This document shows positions 3,369 to 33,072 of a stretch of 38,430 nucleotides of DNA, piece after piece. The position numbers and the translations under genes were made by a program. Below the pieces are notes generated by a model, which worked only from the letters and a program-made list of their open reading frames with translations, ran no database searches and was not told the origin of the DNA. The DNA is from a virus (Duplodnaviria; Heunggongvirae; Uroviricota; Caudoviricetes). Each line of letters begins with the position of its first letter. The first letter of the stretch is position 1. Where the stretch lies: positions 1 through 38,430 of the IMG/VR virus record IMGVR_UViG_2778261428_000003. The stretch is one strand, 5' to 3'.

Positions 3369-4417
3369 GAAATCGTACCCAGAACCGCCAGTTCATTTTT
3401 TGCAATGGAGATATTGTCCGCCGGAGCAAGCAACTGATGGCTGTATTCCCCGTTCGCACCGGAAATCGCTTCACTGATACGCGATACCTTCAGCTCTCCC
3501 TGCGGATAACCATCACGCAGCAGGAATGAACGCAACTCTGCGGTAATGGCAGCCCGTATTTCCGGTGTGTCCGGCGTCACGCGGATATGAAAATCCACCG
3601 TATGTGCCACCGGCCTGAACACATACAAATCAGAGCCTGCCACCGGGGCCAATGGCCCGATATGTTGTCTTGCCGCCGTTTCCGTTGATTCTTCAGGAAT
3701 GGGATTAATCAGGTCACTACTGGCAATCATCACACCGACAGTCCCCGTTCCCATCCAGTGACGATATGCCCATGCGCGGGTAATGCCGGGCACTTCTTTA
3801 GCCCAGACGACATAGTCCCCGTCAGCCCCGCCCTGAGGCGTCCAGTAATACCGCTCAATGATGCGGGCGCGCCACGTTTCCAGCTCTTCAGTATCAAATC
3901 CGCCTGTCAGGGTGTCAGCCACACCGGAAGACGGCAGCCCATTCACCGGCGTGACCAGGATTAATGCCGTACCGTCGTCAGCGTTACCGACCGCACCTGC
4001 ACTTGAGCAGGCGATCGGCACGCGCAGGACACCACCGGAGCTGGTTGCATCGGCAGTTGCCGTGTACTGAACCAGGTCATCGCGCTGAATAACACTCCCG
4101 GCGGTCACCTTCAGGCCATCACTGACACCTTCCCAGCGCATATATCCGCTGGCAGCCGTGGCCCCCTTGCGCGGACACCGTTTCATCGCAGCATGTCGCG
4201 CCAGCCAGGACTCATCGCACAGGTCAGGCAGCATGTTCAATGCCAGATAATCGATGTACCCGTAAACCGTATGCAGCGCCGCCGCATACACCTTTGCCCG
4301 CACGTCTTCATCCATGCGCCGGAGCGTGTCGCTGACGTCCAGCCTGGCGAATAAATCGTTACGGAGCATACTGATATTTTCTGCCAGCGTCGGGCGCTGA
4401 AATTCACTGTCCGCCAT
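3359..4417 (-). CDS. Baseplate J-like protein (Mu gp47-like)
   Basis: 352 aa, position in Mu-type baseplate block, operon packing with overlaps. Confidence 0.75.
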
Positions 4418-29193: not shown

Positions 29194-29753
29194 GCGTTAG
29201 TTTCTCCACAGTCACGACACGCCACGGCGCCCGGAGCTGCACACTCGCGGGCGTCATTACTTTCTGAAATGCAAAAAATTTTGTAGACCAGTGCTGCATG
29301 CTCTTGCAGCTTCGAAATTGAGAGGTACAGCTCGTCGTTAATTGCTGTCTTCTCATGCGGTTCCACTACACCGTCTTCAATTGCTGAACGAATCTGTTTT
29401 GAATAACTGCCGATCTGTTCAATGACCTCCAGCAGGCGTTGGTTGATATCGGCGTTGTCCACATCCTCGACATCAGGAAGAGACACAAAGACGCCATTTG
29501 CAGACTGCGCCACAGCGTCAGCAATGAAGTGAGTTCCACCAGCACGTTGCAAAATCATTGCCCATCCCAGCGGGAAAATCTGATCGCCATCGGCACGAAG
29601 GCGGTTAAATAATGCGTTCTCTGTTACATCCAGCCAGTCAGCTGCTTCAGCGTAACCACCCGGCAACTTTGCGATAGTTTTTCTGACAGCTTTCACGTAC
29701 CACTCAGGCTGTTTTTCTACTTTCCAGTGATGCTTACCCACGGTTAGCCTCAT
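29190..29753 (-). CDS. CII-like / YdaT-like early regulatory protein
   Basis: 187 aa directly downstream of cro-like gene. Confidence 0.4.
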
Positions 29754-29784
29754 CGTTCTGTGGTTAAAAATTGAAAGTGTTCTG

Positions 29785-29985
29785 CTAATCTTTCGGATAG
29801 ATATCCGGTCTTAAGTCAGATTTCGTAATTGCACCTGACGTGCATTGCTCAAGTTTTTTAGCCAGCACAAAACTGGCTTTTTTATAGCCATTGAAAACCA
29901 GCCGTAAGTAGCCAGGTGTTGAGCCAACTTTTCCGGCCAACTCGCCCTGCTGTTCTTTGGTTAAAGAGTCCCAATACGCTTTCAT
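29785..29985 (-). CDS. cro: Cro-like repressor (YdaS family)
   Basis: 67 aa, MKAYWDSLTKEQQGELAGKVGSTPGYLRLVFNGYKKASFVLAKKLEQCTSGAITKSDLRPDIYP; GGAGG upstream; divergent from cI. Confidence 0.65.
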   Translation of the reverse strand: MKAYWDSLTKEQQGELAGKVGSTPGYLRLVFNGYKKASFVLAKKLEQCTSGAITKSDLRPDIYPKD

Positions 29986-30075
29986 ACAATGTGTACCTCC
30001 GGTGTACATATTACATGATTGAAATGAACCTTCAAGATACTTGTACCTTAACGGTACAAGGGTTTTAATTTCGTT
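29986..30075. promoter_or_regulatory. Immunity-region operator/promoter (OR-like): divergent pR and pRM candidates
   Basis: Palindrome cTTGTACC-ttaac-GGTACAAg at 30040-30060 and second tgtacc-containing site at 29991-30009; minus-strand TTGAAG-N16-TAATAT candidate promoter for cro. Confidence 0.6.
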
Positions 30076-30750
30076 ATGAAAACAATCCATGACATCCGGC
30101 GGTCTAACGCCAGAAAACTGAGAGATGGTGTTGGCGGGAATTCTTCCTTTGCCACTATGATTGATCGCGAGCCAACCCAGACCAGCAGGTTTATGGGAGA
30201 TGGTGCTACTAAAAATATCGGTGACAGCATGGCACGACACATCGAAAAATGTTTCGACCTGCCTGTCGGATGGCTCGATCAAGAACACCAGACAACGAAC
30301 ATCACAAAAAAACCTGATGTTTCAATCACTAATAAACAAATCACATTAGTCCCTGTCATATCATGGGTACAGGCCGGAGCATGGAAAGAAGTTGGATATT
30401 CTGAGGTTGATTTGAGCACAGCAGAAACGTATCCCTGCCCTGTACCCTGTGGGGAAATGACTTATATCTTGCGGGTGATAGGTGATTCAATGATTGATGA
30501 GTACCGCCCGGGAGACATGATTTTTGTCGATCCTGAAGTACCTGCCTGCCACGGTGACGACGTTATTGCATTGATGCACGATACAGGCGAAACCACCTTC
30601 AAAAGGTTGATAGAAGATGGGACACAGCGTTATCTCAAAGCGTTAAACCCAAACTGGCCTGAGCCTTACATTAAGATCAACGGTAATTGCTCTATAATTG
30701 GTACAGTGATTTTCTCAGGAAAACCAAGAAGATACAAAATCAAAGCCTAA
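30076..30750 (+). CDS. cI: CI-like repressor (HTH + S24 LexA-type peptidase)
   Basis: C-terminal GDSM ... K dyad of S24 peptidases; N-terminal XRE-like HTH; no Shine-Dalgarno (possibly leaderless). Confidence 0.8.
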   Translation: MKTIHDIRRSNARKLRDGVGGNSSFATMIDREPTQTSRFMGDGATKNIGDSMARHIEKCFDLPVGWLDQEHQTTNITKKPDVSITNKQITLVPVISWVQAGAWKEVGYSEVDLSTAETYPCPVPCGEMTYILRVIGDSMIDEYRPGDMIFVDPEVPACHGDDVIALMHDTGETTFKRLIEDGTQRYLKALNPNWPEPYIKINGNCSIIGTVIFSGKPRRYKIKA

Positions 30751-30762
30751 TCAATGTTTATG

Positions 30763-30787
30763 AACCTGCTTCGGCAGGTTTTTTTAT
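30763..30787 (+). terminator. Rho-independent terminator after cI
   Basis: aacctgc-ttcg-gcaggtt followed by TTTTTTT. Confidence 0.65.
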
Positions 30788-30789
30788 AC

Positions 30790-30823
30790 TTGACAATGTA
30801 CCTTTGAGATACATAATGTACCC
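30790..30823 (+). promoter_or_regulatory. Strong sigma70-like promoter with overlapping operator half-sites (pL/OL candidate)
   Basis: TTGACA (30790-30795), 16-bp spacer, CATAAT (30812-30817); AATGTACC repeated at 30795-30802 and 30815-30822, same half-site as OR. Confidence 0.55.
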
Positions 30824-30943
30824 AACCGAAACAACGAACAGGCAGGACGCCCACGAAGTAGCCGCCTGGGGCATATGAAGTCCAGGATGATTCGTTGAGT
30901 CATGTTGTGCCACTAGGCACTCATGTTAAAGCAGGTGTATGAA

Positions 30944-31219
30944 ATGAAAGTCCAGATTTTAAACAATAACTGTGAAGTCGTTTGGTCATACGACATAGCC
31001 GCCCCTGTAGATCAGAGCGGCGATAGCTGGACCAATGGGAAACATCAGATTATGGCTGGAGTTGTGTTCTCTTTACGCCGTGCTTTGGAACAGGCTGAAG
31101 TATTTCCATCAGACCCTGAATGGAAATGGCCTTTTTCTATTTGTCCAAATTCTGAGAGTACATTTCAGAAAATTGGTCAGAAAGTCGCACTCGAAGAGCA
31201 TCAGCCAACTGTTTCCTGA
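30944..31219 (+). CDS. Hypothetical 91-aa protein, first gene downstream of the pL candidate
   Basis: Start set at ATG 30944 (MKVQIL...) preceded by AGGTG; ORF-track start 30923 lacks a Shine-Dalgarno. Confidence 0.4.
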   Translation: MKVQILNNNCEVVWSYDIAAPVDQSGDSWTNGKHQIMAGVVFSLRRALEQAEVFPSDPEWKWPFSICPNSESTFQKIGQKVALEEHQPTVS

Positions 31220-31382
31220 TTTTTTCAGGTAACTCGTCGGCATCGCAGAAACAACAACGATCGATCATGTTGAAAGCCGATTCGTAAAACTGTTTCTGCT
31301 GAGTGTCGCTGAGACAGGAAAAGAGCGACGTTACGATGATTTTATTAATTGCATTATCAAGTTCTTTTTCATCAAAAGTCAT
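31137..31382 (-). CDS. Hypothetical 81-aa protein, convergent and overlapping
   Basis: ORF in locally AT-rich DNA; overlaps the 3' end of 30944..31219 by about 80 nt. Confidence 0.3.
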   Translation of the reverse strand: MTFDEKELDNAINKIIVTSLFSCLSDTQQKQFYESAFNMIDRCCFCDADELPEKIRKQLADALRVRLSDQFSEMYSQNLDK

Positions 31383-31681
31383 TTGATTTTCCTTTTATGT
31401 ATACGGGCTTAAAAGGATACCACCGAGCCTGAAGTGGTGAAAAGACAGGCACATAACAGCTAAGTATTTTCAACCAGAGAGAATCCTTAGCGTTGTGGTG
31501 AATGCGGCTCAGCGCACGCGGGTTAAGGTTGAGGCTGACAGTCGACCTTCTGTGGATACCCACCCGTCTGGTGTGCAACCTTCGCCAGGCACCGGGAGGC
31601 ACCCGGCACCACAACTTTATGCTGTGCGTAGTCCTGGCGGTACCAGTTTGTACCCTTGCTTCCGGCTGGTACCGTCCTTTT

Positions 31682-31770
31682 TACAAAACAGAGAAGAGCA
31701 TCACCGGACGACGGGCTCATAACCCAATCCATCCGGGCGGCTGCCACCGCAGGTGTTCTTCTCTGTTTTG
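31682..31770 (+). other. Long inverted repeat (18-bp stem) in the untranslated leader upstream of yfdP-like gene
   Basis: acaaaacagagaagagca ... tgttcttctctgttttgt (one G-U), enclosing about 50 nt of GC-rich sequence. Confidence 0.5.
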
Positions 31771-31819
31771 TGGAGAAACCAACCGGCCTTGCAGGGTCGA
31801 TATGATGAGGAGCAGCAAA

Positions 31820-32182
31820 ATGGCTAGCGAACGCAGTACTGATGTGCAGGCATTTATCGGGGAGCTGGACGGCGGCGTATTTGAAACCAAAATCGGCGCA
31901 GTTCTCAGTGAAGTCGCTTCCGGTGTGATGAACACGAAAACCAAAGGTAAGGTCTCGCTCAACCTGGAAATCGAACCATTTGATGAGAACCGTGTGAAAA
32001 TCAAACACAAACTCTCATATGTTCGCCCGACTAACCGTGGGAAAATTTCCGAAGAAGACACCACCGAAACGCCGATGTATGTCAATCGCGGTGGTCGCCT
32101 GACTATTCTGCAGGAAGACCAGGGACAATTACTGACTCTTGCCGGTGAGCCTGACGGAAAACTCCGCGCAGCAGGTCATTAA
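31820..32182 (+). CDS. yfdP: YfdP-like prophage protein (120 aa)
   Basis: Start at ATG 31820 (MASERSTDVQAFIGELDGG...); gene order matches CPS-53 yfdPQRST block from memory. Confidence 0.55.
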   Translation: MASERSTDVQAFIGELDGGVFETKIGAVLSEVASGVMNTKTKGKVSLNLEIEPFDENRVKIKHKLSYVRPTNRGKISEEDTTETPMYVNRGGRLTILQEDQGQLLTLAGEPDGKLRAAGH

Positions 32183-32247
32183 TATCGTTCTTAATTAACT
32201 GATTATTTATCTCATCACTGAATATCTTAATATAGTGAGGACTTATT

Positions 32248-33072
32248 ATGTCTCAGAACTTAGACGCAACTGCAATTAATCAAATCCATGCCCTTATTTC
32301 TGCTCAGGGTGTTAATGAAATTATCAGTAAGATTGGTGCCGATGCTGTGGCATTGCCTGAGAATTTCCGCATTCATGATCTGGAAAAATTTAATTTAAAT
32401 CGCTTCCGTTTCCGTGGTGCGCTTTCCACTGCCAGCATCGATGACTTTACCCGTTATTCTAAAGATCTTGCAGATGAAGGCACCCGCTGCTTTATCGATG
32501 CTGATAATATGCGTGCCGTCAGTGTACTTAACCTGGGTACTATTGATGAACCAGGTCACGCAGATAACACCGCCACTCTCAAACTGAAAAAGACAGCACC
32601 GTTCTCTGCCCTGTTGTCTGTTAACGGCGAGCGTAACTCCCAGAAGTCACTGGCAGAATGGATTGAAGACTGGGCCGACTACCTTGTGGGCTTTGATGCT
32701 AATGGTGACGCTATTCAGGCAACAAAAGCGGCTGCGGCAGTCCGTAAAATCACGATTGAAGCAAACCAGACCGCTGATTTTGAAGATAATGACTTCAGCG
32801 GCAAACGCTCCCTGATGGAGTCTGTCGAAGCGAAGACCAAAGACATTATGCCAGTGGCATTTGAATTTAAATGCGTTCCGTTTGAAGGCCTTAAAGAACG
32901 TCCGTTTAAATTACGCCTCAACATTATCACTGGCGATCGTCCTGTACTGGTTCTGCGCATTATTCAGCTGGAAGCAGTGCAGGAAGAAATGGCTAACGAA
33001 TTTCGTGATCTGCTTGTTGAGAAATTTAAAGACAGCAAAGTAGAAACCTTTATTGGTACTTTCACCGCCTGA
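32248..33072 (+). CDS. yfdQ: YfdQ-like protein (DUF2303), 274 aa
   Basis: Length and order match CPS-53 yfdQ; recalled similarity. Confidence 0.6.

What the first reader, a model, noticed from the sequence alone, without database searches (positions are those of the whole stretch)
30763..31219. Terminator, strong operator-overlapped promoter and a small gene immediately downstream of cI
After cI there is an intrinsic terminator, then a near-consensus promoter (TTGACA-16-CATAAT) whose -35 and -10 each overlap an AATGTACC half-site, the same motif found in the cro/cI operators. The first gene it drives (91 aa) is not N-like (not Arg-rich). It is either a repressor-controlled early gene or a lysogen-expressed exclusion gene. 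No N-type antiterminator is evident anywhere in the window.
Basis: seen in the sequence. Interest (0 to 1): 0.45.

Follow-up and report, generated by a model that had tools for sequence, protein, structure and literature searches.

The report
Early-left promoter with conserved leader RNA
This is the ordinary repressor-controlled early-left promoter (PL) of an SfV/e14-type temperate phage, but the first ~70 bases of its transcript form a strongly conserved, unannotated RNA structure that may stand in for the missing N antiterminator.

Summary
The window is about 99% identical to Shigella phage SfV. There is a cI terminator at 30762-30786, an 11/12 sigma-70 promoter at 30790-30817, and a real 91-aa gene (orf33). 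The "half-sites" belong to two 17-bp operators, TGTACC-N5-GGTACA, the same motif as in OR. E. coli K-12 prophage e14 carries the identical promoter, and its downstream genes are induced late in the SOS response. So this is PL/OL, not a lysogen-expressed exclusion promoter.

It has two helices with heavy compensatory covariation (94.9% paired; 10 of 11 pairs changed on both sides) around an invariant core. It occurs once per phage, just downstream of the early-left promoter, in over 120 viral contigs, about 50 GenBank phages, a T5-like phage and 1804 of 5426 complete E. coli genomes. It is never annotated. It matches no Rfam family and is not an HK022 put RNA by covariance model.

A strong intrinsic terminator lies 780 nt downstream, before orf32 through int. 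I propose, by inference only, that the RNA is an N-independent cis-acting antitermination element.

orf33 also overlaps a conserved convergent 81-aa gene.

The parts
30076..30750 (+). cI-type repressor gene (224 aa; HTH plus S24 self-cleavage domain). It is context for the finding.
   Evidence: Peptidase_S24 hit at 1.5e-26; PHROG 4 transcriptional repressor; annotated cI in SfV; same gene end as ymfK of e14.
30762..30786 (+). Intrinsic terminator of the cI transcript (8-bp stem, UUCG loop, U-run).
   Evidence: annotated as a terminator in SfV and Ayreon.
30790..30817 (+). PL promoter: TTGACA, 16-nt spacer, CATAAT. Predicted +1 at A30824 or A30825.
   Evidence: 11 of 12 consensus matches; annotated as a promoter in Ayreon; identical in e14, where ymfJ is SOS-induced. 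The +1 position is inferred from spacing.
30797..30813 (.). Operator OL1: TGTACC-TTTGA-GATACA (1 mismatch to the palindrome).
   Evidence: The half-sites are kept while the spacer differs in SfIV (CACGA) and Ayreon (CTTGA).
30817..30833 (.). Operator OL2: TGTACC-CAACC-GAAACA (2 mismatches), covering the +1 region.
   Evidence: The right half GAAACA is retained in Ayreon although the downstream leader is unrelated. This places the end of the immunity module at about 30833.
30833..30896 (+). Conserved structured leader RNA. P1 pairs 30833-30838 with 30891-30896. A mini-hairpin pairs GGC (30841-30843) with GCC (30849-30851). The invariant strand CACGAAGUAGCCG is at 30852-30864. P2 pairs 30865-30869 with 30882-30886 and has the 12-nt loop GGCAUAUGAAGU. 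The AUGA linker is at 30887-30890.
   Evidence: Covariation counts; covariance model R1 scores 92.8 bits, E 4e-29, with a single copy in the window; homologs; no Rfam match.
30901..30925 (+). Hairpin after the element (CAUG-GUGCC-ACUA-GGCAC-CAUG). It sequesters the upstream alternative ATG at 30923.
   Evidence: It is conserved together with the first 15 codons of orf33 in SfII, where the ORF is truncated.
30944..31219 (+). orf33, a 91-aa protein of unknown function and the first gene of the PL operon in this phage.
   Evidence: PHROG 3195 at 3.8e-65. Divergent homologs of 58-68% identity are conserved along the whole length. In a Salmonella prophage a homolog again sits directly after the element.
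31137..31382 (-). Convergent 81-aa gene that overlaps the 3' end of orf33 by 83 nt. SfV does not annotate it.
   Evidence: PHROG 3311 at 1.2e-53; 62% identity and 82% positives to the syntenic Salmonella ORF; AAGGA ribosome-binding site 8 nt upstream.
31462..31684 (+). STnc100-like structured RNA that ends in a strong intrinsic terminator (13-bp stem at about 31635-31676, then U5). It is the first strong barrier on the PL operon, ahead of orf32, yfdQ, yfdR, xis and int.
   Evidence: Rfam RF02076 at 40.4 bits, below the gathering score of 47; folds (z = -5.1); conserved in e14, SfII, SfIV and ST64B.

Best explanation
The region is the left end of the immunity module of an SfV/e14-type lambdoid phage.

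Shown or well supported:
- The cI transcript stops at an intrinsic terminator.
- Eight bases further on lies PL, a near-consensus sigma-70 promoter.
- In the lysogen PL is occluded by repressor bound to two 17-bp operators, OL1 in the spacer and OL2 over +1. It fires when the S24-type repressor self-cleaves during the SOS response.
- About 10 nt into the transcript there is a 64-nt RNA. It has a closing helix P1, a GGC/GCC mini-hairpin, an invariant single strand, a hairpin P2 with a conserved 12-nt loop, and an AUGA linker.

Inferred:
- This RNA acts in cis on the transcribing RNA polymerase, either alone as HK022 put does or together with Nus factors.
- This makes transcription from PL resistant to termination. 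It would let transcription pass the strong intrinsic terminator at about 31684 and reach orf32, yfdQ, yfdR, xis and int in a phage that has no N protein.

The first gene, orf33, is a genuine early gene of unknown function. It sits in a swappable cargo slot and pairs with a convergent overlapping 81-aa gene.

The confidence of 0.5 applies to the antitermination role. For the anatomy (terminator, PL/OL, a real structured RNA, a real gene) I put confidence at 0.9 or higher.
For: Anatomy.

Identity with SfV and e14.

SOS-late induction in e14 of ymfJ (promoter-proximal) and of intE (beyond the terminator), and their membership of one iModulon.

The RNA structure is real:
- 94.9% of cells are paired, against 64% in shuffles and 43% or less when partners are slid.
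- 10 of 11 pairs show changes on both sides.
- P1 occurs in at least four unrelated sequence versions: AGCGAA/UUCGCU, CCACC/GGUGG, GUCAUC/GAUGAC and GGAAC/GUUCC.
- G-U pairs outnumber A-C pairs, which favours the + strand RNA over the complement.

Placement:
- There is exactly one copy per locus in 91 loci totalling 869 kb.
- In every annotated case it lies downstream of a repressor gene and promoter and points the same way as the downstream genes.
- The distance from the -10 hexamer to P1 peaks at 12-16 nt.

The core is invariant across phages with different repressors and different downstream genes (orf33, ymfJ, kil and others). This suggests a conserved host target rather than a phage-specific protein.

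Slot equivalence: mEp237 and HK639 share a 62%-identical HTH regulator module. At the same position after pL, HK639 carries its annotated putL-like antiterminator RNA and mEp237 carries this element.

Association with boxA: an rrn-type boxA (GCTCTTTAACAA) follows the element in SfIV-type leaders, and CGCTCTTTAAAAA follows it in the T5-like phage PR1. This links the leader to elongation-complex modification.

A strong terminator lies between PL and the distal genes.

No N protein.
Against: - No functional data exist for the RNA. Antitermination is inferred from position, analogy and the need for some such mechanism.
- The window's own leader has no canonical boxA.
- There is no second copy on the PR side, unlike HK022.
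- Phage Ayreon and the Stx2c and cdtI phages have the same cI and PL and the same distal terminator but lack the element. The element is therefore not indispensable for this operon layout, or another leader module replaces it.
- My scan for co-directional terminators downstream of the element showed no enrichment over the opposite strand.
- Distal e14 genes could have a promoter of their own.
Confidence: 0.5

Rival explanations
1. The RNA is a leader element with a function after transcription rather than an antiterminator. It could be a 5' stabiliser against RNase E or RppH, a processing site, a translation or ribosome-loading element for whichever gene comes first, or the precursor of a trans-acting small RNA.
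For: It sits at the extreme 5' end of an mRNA. Prophage early regions are rich in regulatory small RNAs; the neighbouring STnc100-like RNA belongs to such a family. Phages with the same PL manage without it.
Against: About 40 invariant or nearly invariant nucleotides and a multi-helix fold are far more than a 5' stabiliser needs. The distance to the first start codon and the identity of that gene vary freely, which argues against a gene-specific translational operator. No terminator directly follows the element that would release it as a small RNA.
Confidence: 0.28
2. The RNA is a nut-like recruitment site for an unidentified protein, either phage-encoded (a non-Arg-rich analogue of N) or a host factor. 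The protein, not the RNA alone, modifies the polymerase.
For: The architecture of a structured RNA next to boxA in SfIV-type and PR1 leaders mirrors lambda nut and the rrn leader.
Against: No conserved protein gene travels with the element. The genes next to it differ: orf33, ymfJ, kil, and T5-type pre-early genes. Unlike boxB, which co-varies with N specificity, the core is invariant across unrelated immunity types. That fits a host target better than a phage protein.
Confidence: 0.12
3. The RNA is a sensor (riboswitch-like) or a small self-cleaving ribozyme that sets the 5' end of the early-left transcript.
For: Its size, invariant core and junction architecture resemble small ribozymes and aptamers, and a tentative pseudoknot pair (columns 34-41) is seen. 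It matches no known class, so a new class cannot be excluded.
Against: No expression platform, whether a terminator or a sequestered ribosome-binding site, is conserved downstream. No Rfam ribozyme or riboswitch model scores.
Confidence: 0.07
4. One reading: the promoter is active in the lysogen and orf33 is a superinfection-exclusion or moron gene.
For: The slot between PL and the STnc100-like RNA is a swappable cargo site. The convergent 81-aa gene could be such a moron.
Against: Operators overlap both the spacer and +1. In e14 the identical promoter is silent until late in the SOS response. orf33 has no hit to defence families.
Confidence: 0.03

Closest known systems
Lambda-type PL/OL early-left promoter with the terminator that ends the cI transcript
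   Same: It lies downstream of cI and points the same way. It is a near-consensus sigma-70 promoter overlapped by multiple operators with the OR motif. It is derepressed by RecA-stimulated repressor cleavage, and it heads the operon that ends in xis and int.
   Different: There are two recognisable operators rather than three, with a 17-bp TGTACC-N5-GGTACA motif. No rex-type genes lie between cI and PL. No N gene or canonical nutL follows.
HK022 put RNAs (putL, putR; also HK639, HK75 and related phages): cis-acting, factor-independent antiterminator RNAs that bind the beta' zinc-binding domain (PMC9378689)
   Same: The size is similar, about 65-70 nt. The element starts within about 10 nt of the PL start site. 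The phage lacks N. The sequence is highly conserved across phages with different immunity. In homologous immunity modules it occupies the same slot (mEp237 versus HK639). HK639 also has a left-operon copy only.
   Different: There is no detectable homology. The put model R2 finds nothing here, and R1 finds nothing in put phages. The fold differs: a closing helix encloses a mini-hairpin, an invariant strand and one hairpin, rather than two tandem stem-loops. Function is untested.
Lambda nut sites (boxA plus boxB) with N protein, and the rrn leader (boxB-boxA-boxC) with Nus factors
   Same: It is a promoter-proximal RNA signal in an early operon that must pass terminators. In SfIV-type leaders and in the T5-like phage PR1 the element is followed by a perfect or near-perfect boxA.
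   Different: The window's leader has no canonical boxA, no 15-nt boxB hairpin and no N-like protein. The element is far larger and more conserved than boxB.
STnc100 (Rfam RF02076), a prophage-encoded Hfq-associated small RNA related to PasD
   Same: The RNA at 31462-31684 aligns end to end with the STnc100 model, including the conserved CACCGGGAGGCACCCGGCACCA segment and a terminal intrinsic terminator.
   Different: It scores 40.4 bits, below the curated threshold of 47. Here it lies inside the PL operon, where its terminator acts as the first strong barrier. It is a neighbour of the finding, not the finding itself.

Membership tests
Lambdoid PL/OL early-left promoter | A sigma-70 promoter immediately downstream of the repressor gene and pointing the same way | tested here: met
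   TTGACA, 16-nt spacer, CATAAT at 30790-30817, with 11 of 12 matches; cI ends at 30750.
Lambdoid PL/OL early-left promoter | The promoter is overlapped by operators with the same motif as OR | tested here: met
   TGTACC-N5-GGTACA at 30797-30813 and 30817-30833 and twice in OR. Five hits in the window against 0.94 expected, all in the immunity region.
Lambdoid PL/OL early-left promoter | Silent in the lysogen and induced on repressor inactivation | tested here: met
   This rests on published data for the identical promoter in K-12 e14, not on data for this phage. ymfJ is induced late in the SOS response, with log2 fold change 4-5 (PMC11002266). Promoter identity is shown.
Lambdoid PL/OL early-left promoter | Direct repressor binding (footprint) | not testable with these tools
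   This needs DNase or ChIP footprinting of SfV cI or YmfK on 30790-30835.
Intrinsic (Rho-independent) terminator | A GC-rich hairpin followed directly by a U-tract | tested here: met
   30762-30781 has 8 bp and a UUCG loop, followed by T7. 31635-31676 has a 13-bp stem followed by U5.
HK022 put antiterminator RNA family | Sequence and structure similarity to putL and putR | tested here: not met
   Covariance model R2, built from 8 put sequences, scores putL at 98.9 bits and putR at 67.8 bits in HK022. It reports nothing at the element in the window at E up to 10 or in 8 element-bearing loci at E up to 1. The reverse test with R1 was also negative.
HK022 put antiterminator RNA family | Two tandem stem-loops separated by one nucleotide | tested here: not met
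   The covariation-supported fold is a closing helix around a mini-hairpin, an invariant strand and one hairpin.
HK022 put antiterminator RNA family | Located just downstream of the early promoter in a phage without N | tested here: met
   P1 starts about 10 nt after the predicted +1. Absence of N is supported.
HK022 put antiterminator RNA family | Promotes terminator readthrough in cis without phage proteins, and is blocked by rpoC zinc-binding-domain mutations | not testable with these tools
   This needs reporter and in vitro transcription assays.
Lambda N/nut antitermination | boxA (CGCTCTTA or GCTCTTTAACAA) in the leader | tested here: not met
   No boxA occurs within 2 mismatches in the window's leader (window row). 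It is present in SfIV-type and PR1 leaders only.
Lambda N/nut antitermination | A small N protein with an N-terminal Arg-rich motif, encoded just after PL | tested here: not met
   orf33 is not Arg-rich and has no Pfam or NCBIfam hit. No candidate appeared in the Arg-rich scan. The literature states that SfV lacks N.
Rfam STnc100 (RF02076), for the downstream RNA at 31462-31684 | A score at or above the curated gathering threshold | tested here: not met
   40.4 bits against 47, E 1.6e-6, with a full-length alignment. It is a relative, but it cannot be filed as a member at the curated cut-off.
PHROG 3195 (orf33) and PHROG 3311 (antisense gene) | A significant full-length profile match | tested here: met
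   3.8e-65 and 1.2e-53. Both families have unknown function.

The most novel reading that the evidence does not exclude
The 64-nt PL-leader RNA is a new class of cis-acting processive antiterminator, or more broadly a modifier of the elongation complex. It would be unrelated in sequence and fold to HK022 put and would be used by N-less lambdoid phages and T5-like phages across Enterobacterales. It is present in about one third of complete E. coli genomes, including the K-12 e14 prophage, and in some phages it works next to an rrn-type boxA.
Probability: 0.4. Interest if true: 0.8.

Novelty: new variant of a known kind. Interest (0 to 1): 0.6.

Why it matters
How lambdoid phages without N (SfV, SfII, SfIV, ST64B, e14 and many prophages) express their delayed-early left operon is not explained in the genome papers I could read, which only record that N is absent. 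HK022 put has been the sole example of an RNA that by itself makes E. coli RNA polymerase termination-resistant. A second, unrelated and much more widespread RNA at the same position would show that RNA-only or RNA-plus-Nus antitermination is a common phage strategy. It would also give a new ligand for structural work on the elongation complex. Because it is present in E. coli K-12 (e14, upstream of ymfJ), it can be tested at once with standard genetics. Even if the function proves to be something else, this is a well-supported, unannotated RNA family that deserves an Rfam entry.

Tried and rejected
- The tblastn "homolog" of orf33 in SfII (40.7% over residues 1-77) is an artefact. SfII keeps the leader and the first 15 codons at about 99% DNA identity and then has a stop codon. 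Real divergent homologs came from the protein database.
- A home-made scan for terminators downstream of the element gave more hits on the opposite strand (4.8 against 1.8 per locus). It is too unspecific and was not used as evidence.
- The AlphaFold model of orf33 was unusable (mean pLDDT 47.8), so no fold search was run.
- The core pattern with two N positions hit Alpha- and Betaproteobacteria, Actinobacteria and an archaeon. These hits are coding sequences that score only 19-27 bits with R1 and are false positives. Genuine full-length hits are in Enterobacterales, one Pseudomonas lundensis and one contig labelled Chryseobacterium, which may be contamination.
- RNAfold on the single sequence gives a different P2 region and an unremarkable z-score. 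The covariation-supported fold was preferred.
- SfV's annotated "terminator" at window 31370-31402 is a weak AT-rich hairpin that overlaps the start of the antisense gene. I do not consider it convincing.
- King et al. 2011 (put-like RNAs) and Mehta et al. 2004 (e14) could not be read. A full-text search for the core sequence found nothing. I therefore cannot fully exclude a prior description in a paper that is not held.

Full report
**Identity of the window.** The region 30000-32300 is 98.7% identical to Shigella phage SfV (NC_003444) over its whole length. In SfV the same features are annotated as cI, a "putative rho-independent terminator", orf33, orf32 and a YfdQ-family gene. Window coordinates equal locus L001 coordinates plus 26004. 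cI (30076-30750, +) has an S24 self-cleavage domain. cro and a CII-like gene lie on the minus strand.

**Check of the observation.**
- The terminator is a stem at 30762-30781 followed by a T-run.
- The promoter is TTGACA, a 16-nt spacer, then CATAAT at 30790-30817. With 11 of 12 matches it is the best promoter-like site in 29500-32400. Phage Ayreon, which shares cI, annotates the same two features as terminator and promoter.
- The full operator is a 17-bp inverted repeat, TGTACC-N5-GGTACA. With up to 2 mismatches it occurs five times in 38 kb against 0.94 expected, and no shuffle out of 100 reached five. All five lie between 29992 and 30833. Two are in OR. OL1 (30797-30813) fills the spacer and touches both hexamers. 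OL2 (30817-30833) covers the +1 region. The fifth, at 30441, is inside cI and probably chance.
- In SfIV and Ayreon the half-sites are kept while the 5-nt spacers differ, as expected for protein-binding half-sites.

**This promoter is PL, not a lysogen promoter.** E. coli K-12 prophage e14 carries the same end of the repressor gene (ymfK), the same terminator and a base-for-base identical promoter and operator segment. In K-12 the first gene after that promoter, ymfJ, is induced only late in the SOS response (log2 fold change 4-5), together with ymfM and intE. The authors attribute this to slow cleavage of the CI-like repressor (PMC11002266). intE, xisE, ymfH and ymfJ also fall into one co-regulated iModulon (PMC12132413).

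I compared SfV, SfII (a different repressor and promoter), SfIV and Ayreon. Similarity to Ayreon stops right after OL2. SfII, however, shares a block that starts at ACGAACAGGCAGG.

A blastn search with 30826-30990 found a roughly 64-nt core in 51 phage records from Escherichia, Shigella, Salmonella, Klebsiella, Citrobacter, Yersinia, Pantoea, Pectobacterium and Providencia. In almost every record no feature is annotated under the match. The element is present in 1804 of 5426 complete E. coli genomes and is never annotated.

**Evidence that the RNA is structured.**
- An alignment of 50 distinct copies (A1) shows two helices, P1 (30833-30838 with 30891-30896) and P2 (30865-30869 with 30882-30886).
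- 94.9% of cells form standard pairs, against 64% after shuffling and 43% or less when partners are slid.
- 10 of 11 pairs show changes on both sides. RNAalifold finds the same helices plus an invariant GGC/GCC mini-hairpin.
- P1 exists in at least four unrelated versions: AGCGAA/UUCGCU, CCACC/GGUGG, GUCAUC/GAUGAC and, in phage PR1, GGAAC/GUUCC.
- Between the helices, about 40 positions are invariant or nearly so. These include CACGAAGUAGC, the P2 loop GGCAUAYGAA and the AUGA linker.
- A possible pseudoknot (columns 32-34 with 41-43) has only weak support.
- G-U pairs outnumber A-C pairs, which points to the + strand, the PL transcript.

**Placement.**
- In every annotated case the element points the same way as the downstream genes. 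It follows a repressor or immunity gene and a promoter. This holds for SfV, SfII, SfIV, ST64B, YeP1, ZF40, mEp237, PHB10, e14 and a Salmonella prophage.
- Among 178 distinct upstream flanks, the distance from a promoter-like -10 hexamer to P1 peaks at 12-16 nt. The RNA therefore usually starts 5-10 nt into the transcript.
- Covariance model R1 finds exactly one copy in the window (92.8 bits; the next best is 10.9 bits). It also finds exactly one in each of 91 loci totalling 869 kb. There is no PR-side copy.

**Comparison with known RNAs.**
- Rfam 15 has no matching family, even with permissive settings on 161 nt.
- The obvious candidate was HK022 put, because SfV-type phages have no N (PMC3851460). 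I collected eight put sequences: putL from HK022, UPF_BP1, phiEt88, S9-5, HK639 and CobraSix, and two putR. From these I built model R2.
- R2 recovers putL and putR in HK022 at 98.9 and 67.8 bits. It finds nothing at the element in the window or in eight loci that carry it.
- R1 finds nothing in the HK022, HK639, CobraSix, phiEt88 or UPF_BP1 loci.
- The folds also differ. The element is therefore not a member of the put family.

**Why I still propose a put-like job.**
1. The position matches putL: the 5' end of the PL transcript in an N-less phage.
2. mEp237 and HK639 have homologous immunity modules, with HTH regulators 62% identical. After pL, HK639 carries its annotated putL-like antiterminator RNA, and mEp237 carries this element at the same place.
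3. The core does not change between phages with unrelated repressors and unrelated first genes (orf33, ymfJ, kil, T5-type pre-early genes). This is expected for an RNA that contacts a conserved host machine. It is not expected for a site read by a fast-evolving phage protein.
4. In SfIV-type leaders a hairpin and a perfect rrn-type boxA (GCTCTTTAACAA) follow the element (11 of 102 distinct flanks). In the virulent T5-like Providencia phage PR1 the element (68 bits) sits behind a pre-early promoter and is followed after 11 nt by CGCTCTTTAAAAA. boxA is the NusB/S10 loading site of the lambda and rrn antitermination complexes (established knowledge).
5. About 780 nt downstream of the element the PL operon meets a strong intrinsic terminator, a 13-bp stem followed by U5. 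It lies at the end of an STnc100-like RNA at 31462-31684. orf32, yfdQ, yfdR, xis and int lie beyond it. In e14 the genes beyond the same terminator are co-induced with ymfJ.

All five points are circumstantial.

**Points against.**
- The window's own leader lacks a canonical boxA.
- Ayreon, Stx2c and cdtI phages share cI, PL and the distal terminator but have a different leader.
- My terminator-enrichment scan was uninformative.

**The gene.** orf33 (30944-31219, 91 aa) belongs to PHROG 3195, which has unknown function. It has no Pfam, NCBIfam or PADLOC hit. It is real: homologs of 58-68% identity are conserved over the full length. In a Salmonella prophage one of them again follows the element directly.

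On the opposite strand an 81-aa ORF (31382-31137, PHROG 3311) overlaps the 3' end of orf33 by 83 nt. It is 62% identical and 82% similar to the syntenic Salmonella ORF. Both members of this convergent pair appear to be genes.

The slot between the element and the STnc100-like RNA is a cargo site. It holds different genes in e14 (ymfJ and ymfI), SfIV, SfII and YeP1, usually one gene on the plus strand and one or more on the minus strand. The structure prediction for orf33 was not usable.

**Verdict.** The finding as written describes an ordinary, essentially known PL/OL region of SfV. The follow-up uncovers a robust, widespread and apparently undescribed structured RNA in the PL leader, present even in E. 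coli K-12. Its best-supported role, though unproven, is N-independent antitermination.

Noticed in passing
window 31462-31684 (+): A STnc100-like RNA (Rfam RF02076, 40.4 bits, below the gathering score of 47) ends in a strong intrinsic terminator. It is conserved in e14, SfII, SfIV and ST64B. ORFs annotated over it (ymfH in K-12; the 226-aa ORF 31502-32182 here) are probably spurious in that part.
   Followed up: partly
window 31678-31781 (+): A hairpin of about 25 bp follows. Its 5' arm includes the terminator's U-tract (CUUUUUACAAAACAGAGAAGAGCAUCACC pairs with GGUGUUCUUCUCUGUUUUGUGGAG). The region 31630-31825 folds with z = -5.1. It lies just upstream of the orf32 ribosome-binding site and its function is unknown.
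   Followed up: no
window 31137-31382 (-): A conserved 81-aa gene with a CCxC motif, not annotated in SfV, converges on orf33 and overlaps it by 83 nt. Its promoter was not identified, and it could be the lysogen-expressed member of the pair.
   Followed up: partly
window 31419-31438, both strands: The conserved hairpin ACCACCGAGCCUGAAGUGGU lies just upstream of the antisense gene. It is kept in SfII, e14 and the Salmonella locus L136, and with compensatory-looking changes in SfIV. On the minus strand it looks like a terminator.
   Followed up: no
L002 (Ayreon) 3855-3900; L004 (SfII) 1364-1400; seven IMG/VR loci: A second conserved leader module (UGGUUGYAACACGGYG, a hairpin, then CGUNAGC) occurs. 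It stands alone after the same PL in Ayreon-type phages. In SfII-type leaders it lies about 55 nt upstream of the 64-nt element. It may be an alternative or additional leader RNA.
   Followed up: partly
L005 (SfIV) about 1400-1445; L259 (PR1) 2572-2590; other IMG/VR loci: An rrn-type boxA (GCTCTTTAACAA or CGCTCTTTAAAAA) lies directly downstream of the element in a subset of phages, including a virulent T5-like phage, where it sits in the terminal-repeat pre-early region.
   Followed up: partly
L009 (mEp237) 2570-2640 and many IMG/VR loci whose P1 is CCACC or GUCAUC: These element variants are followed by a further conserved block (UUAACGCGCAGNAGGU ... AACGUUCCGCYGGCCGGCGAYAAGGC). This suggests an extended RNA domain in Gifsy- or Rac-like prophages with kil downstream.
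   Followed up: no
L004 (SfII) 1523-1570: In SfII orf33 is cut to 15 codons by a recombination junction inside the gene, while the leader upstream is about 99% identical. tblastn reported this as a 40% "homolog".
   Followed up: yes
L130 (E. coli K-12 e14) 3610-3680 (-), which is NC_000913 about 1,202,109-1,202,179: K-12 itself carries the element between ymfK and ymfJ. This copy has a 1-nt insertion and a divergent P2 loop and scores 72 bits. It gives a ready genetic system.
   Followed up: partly
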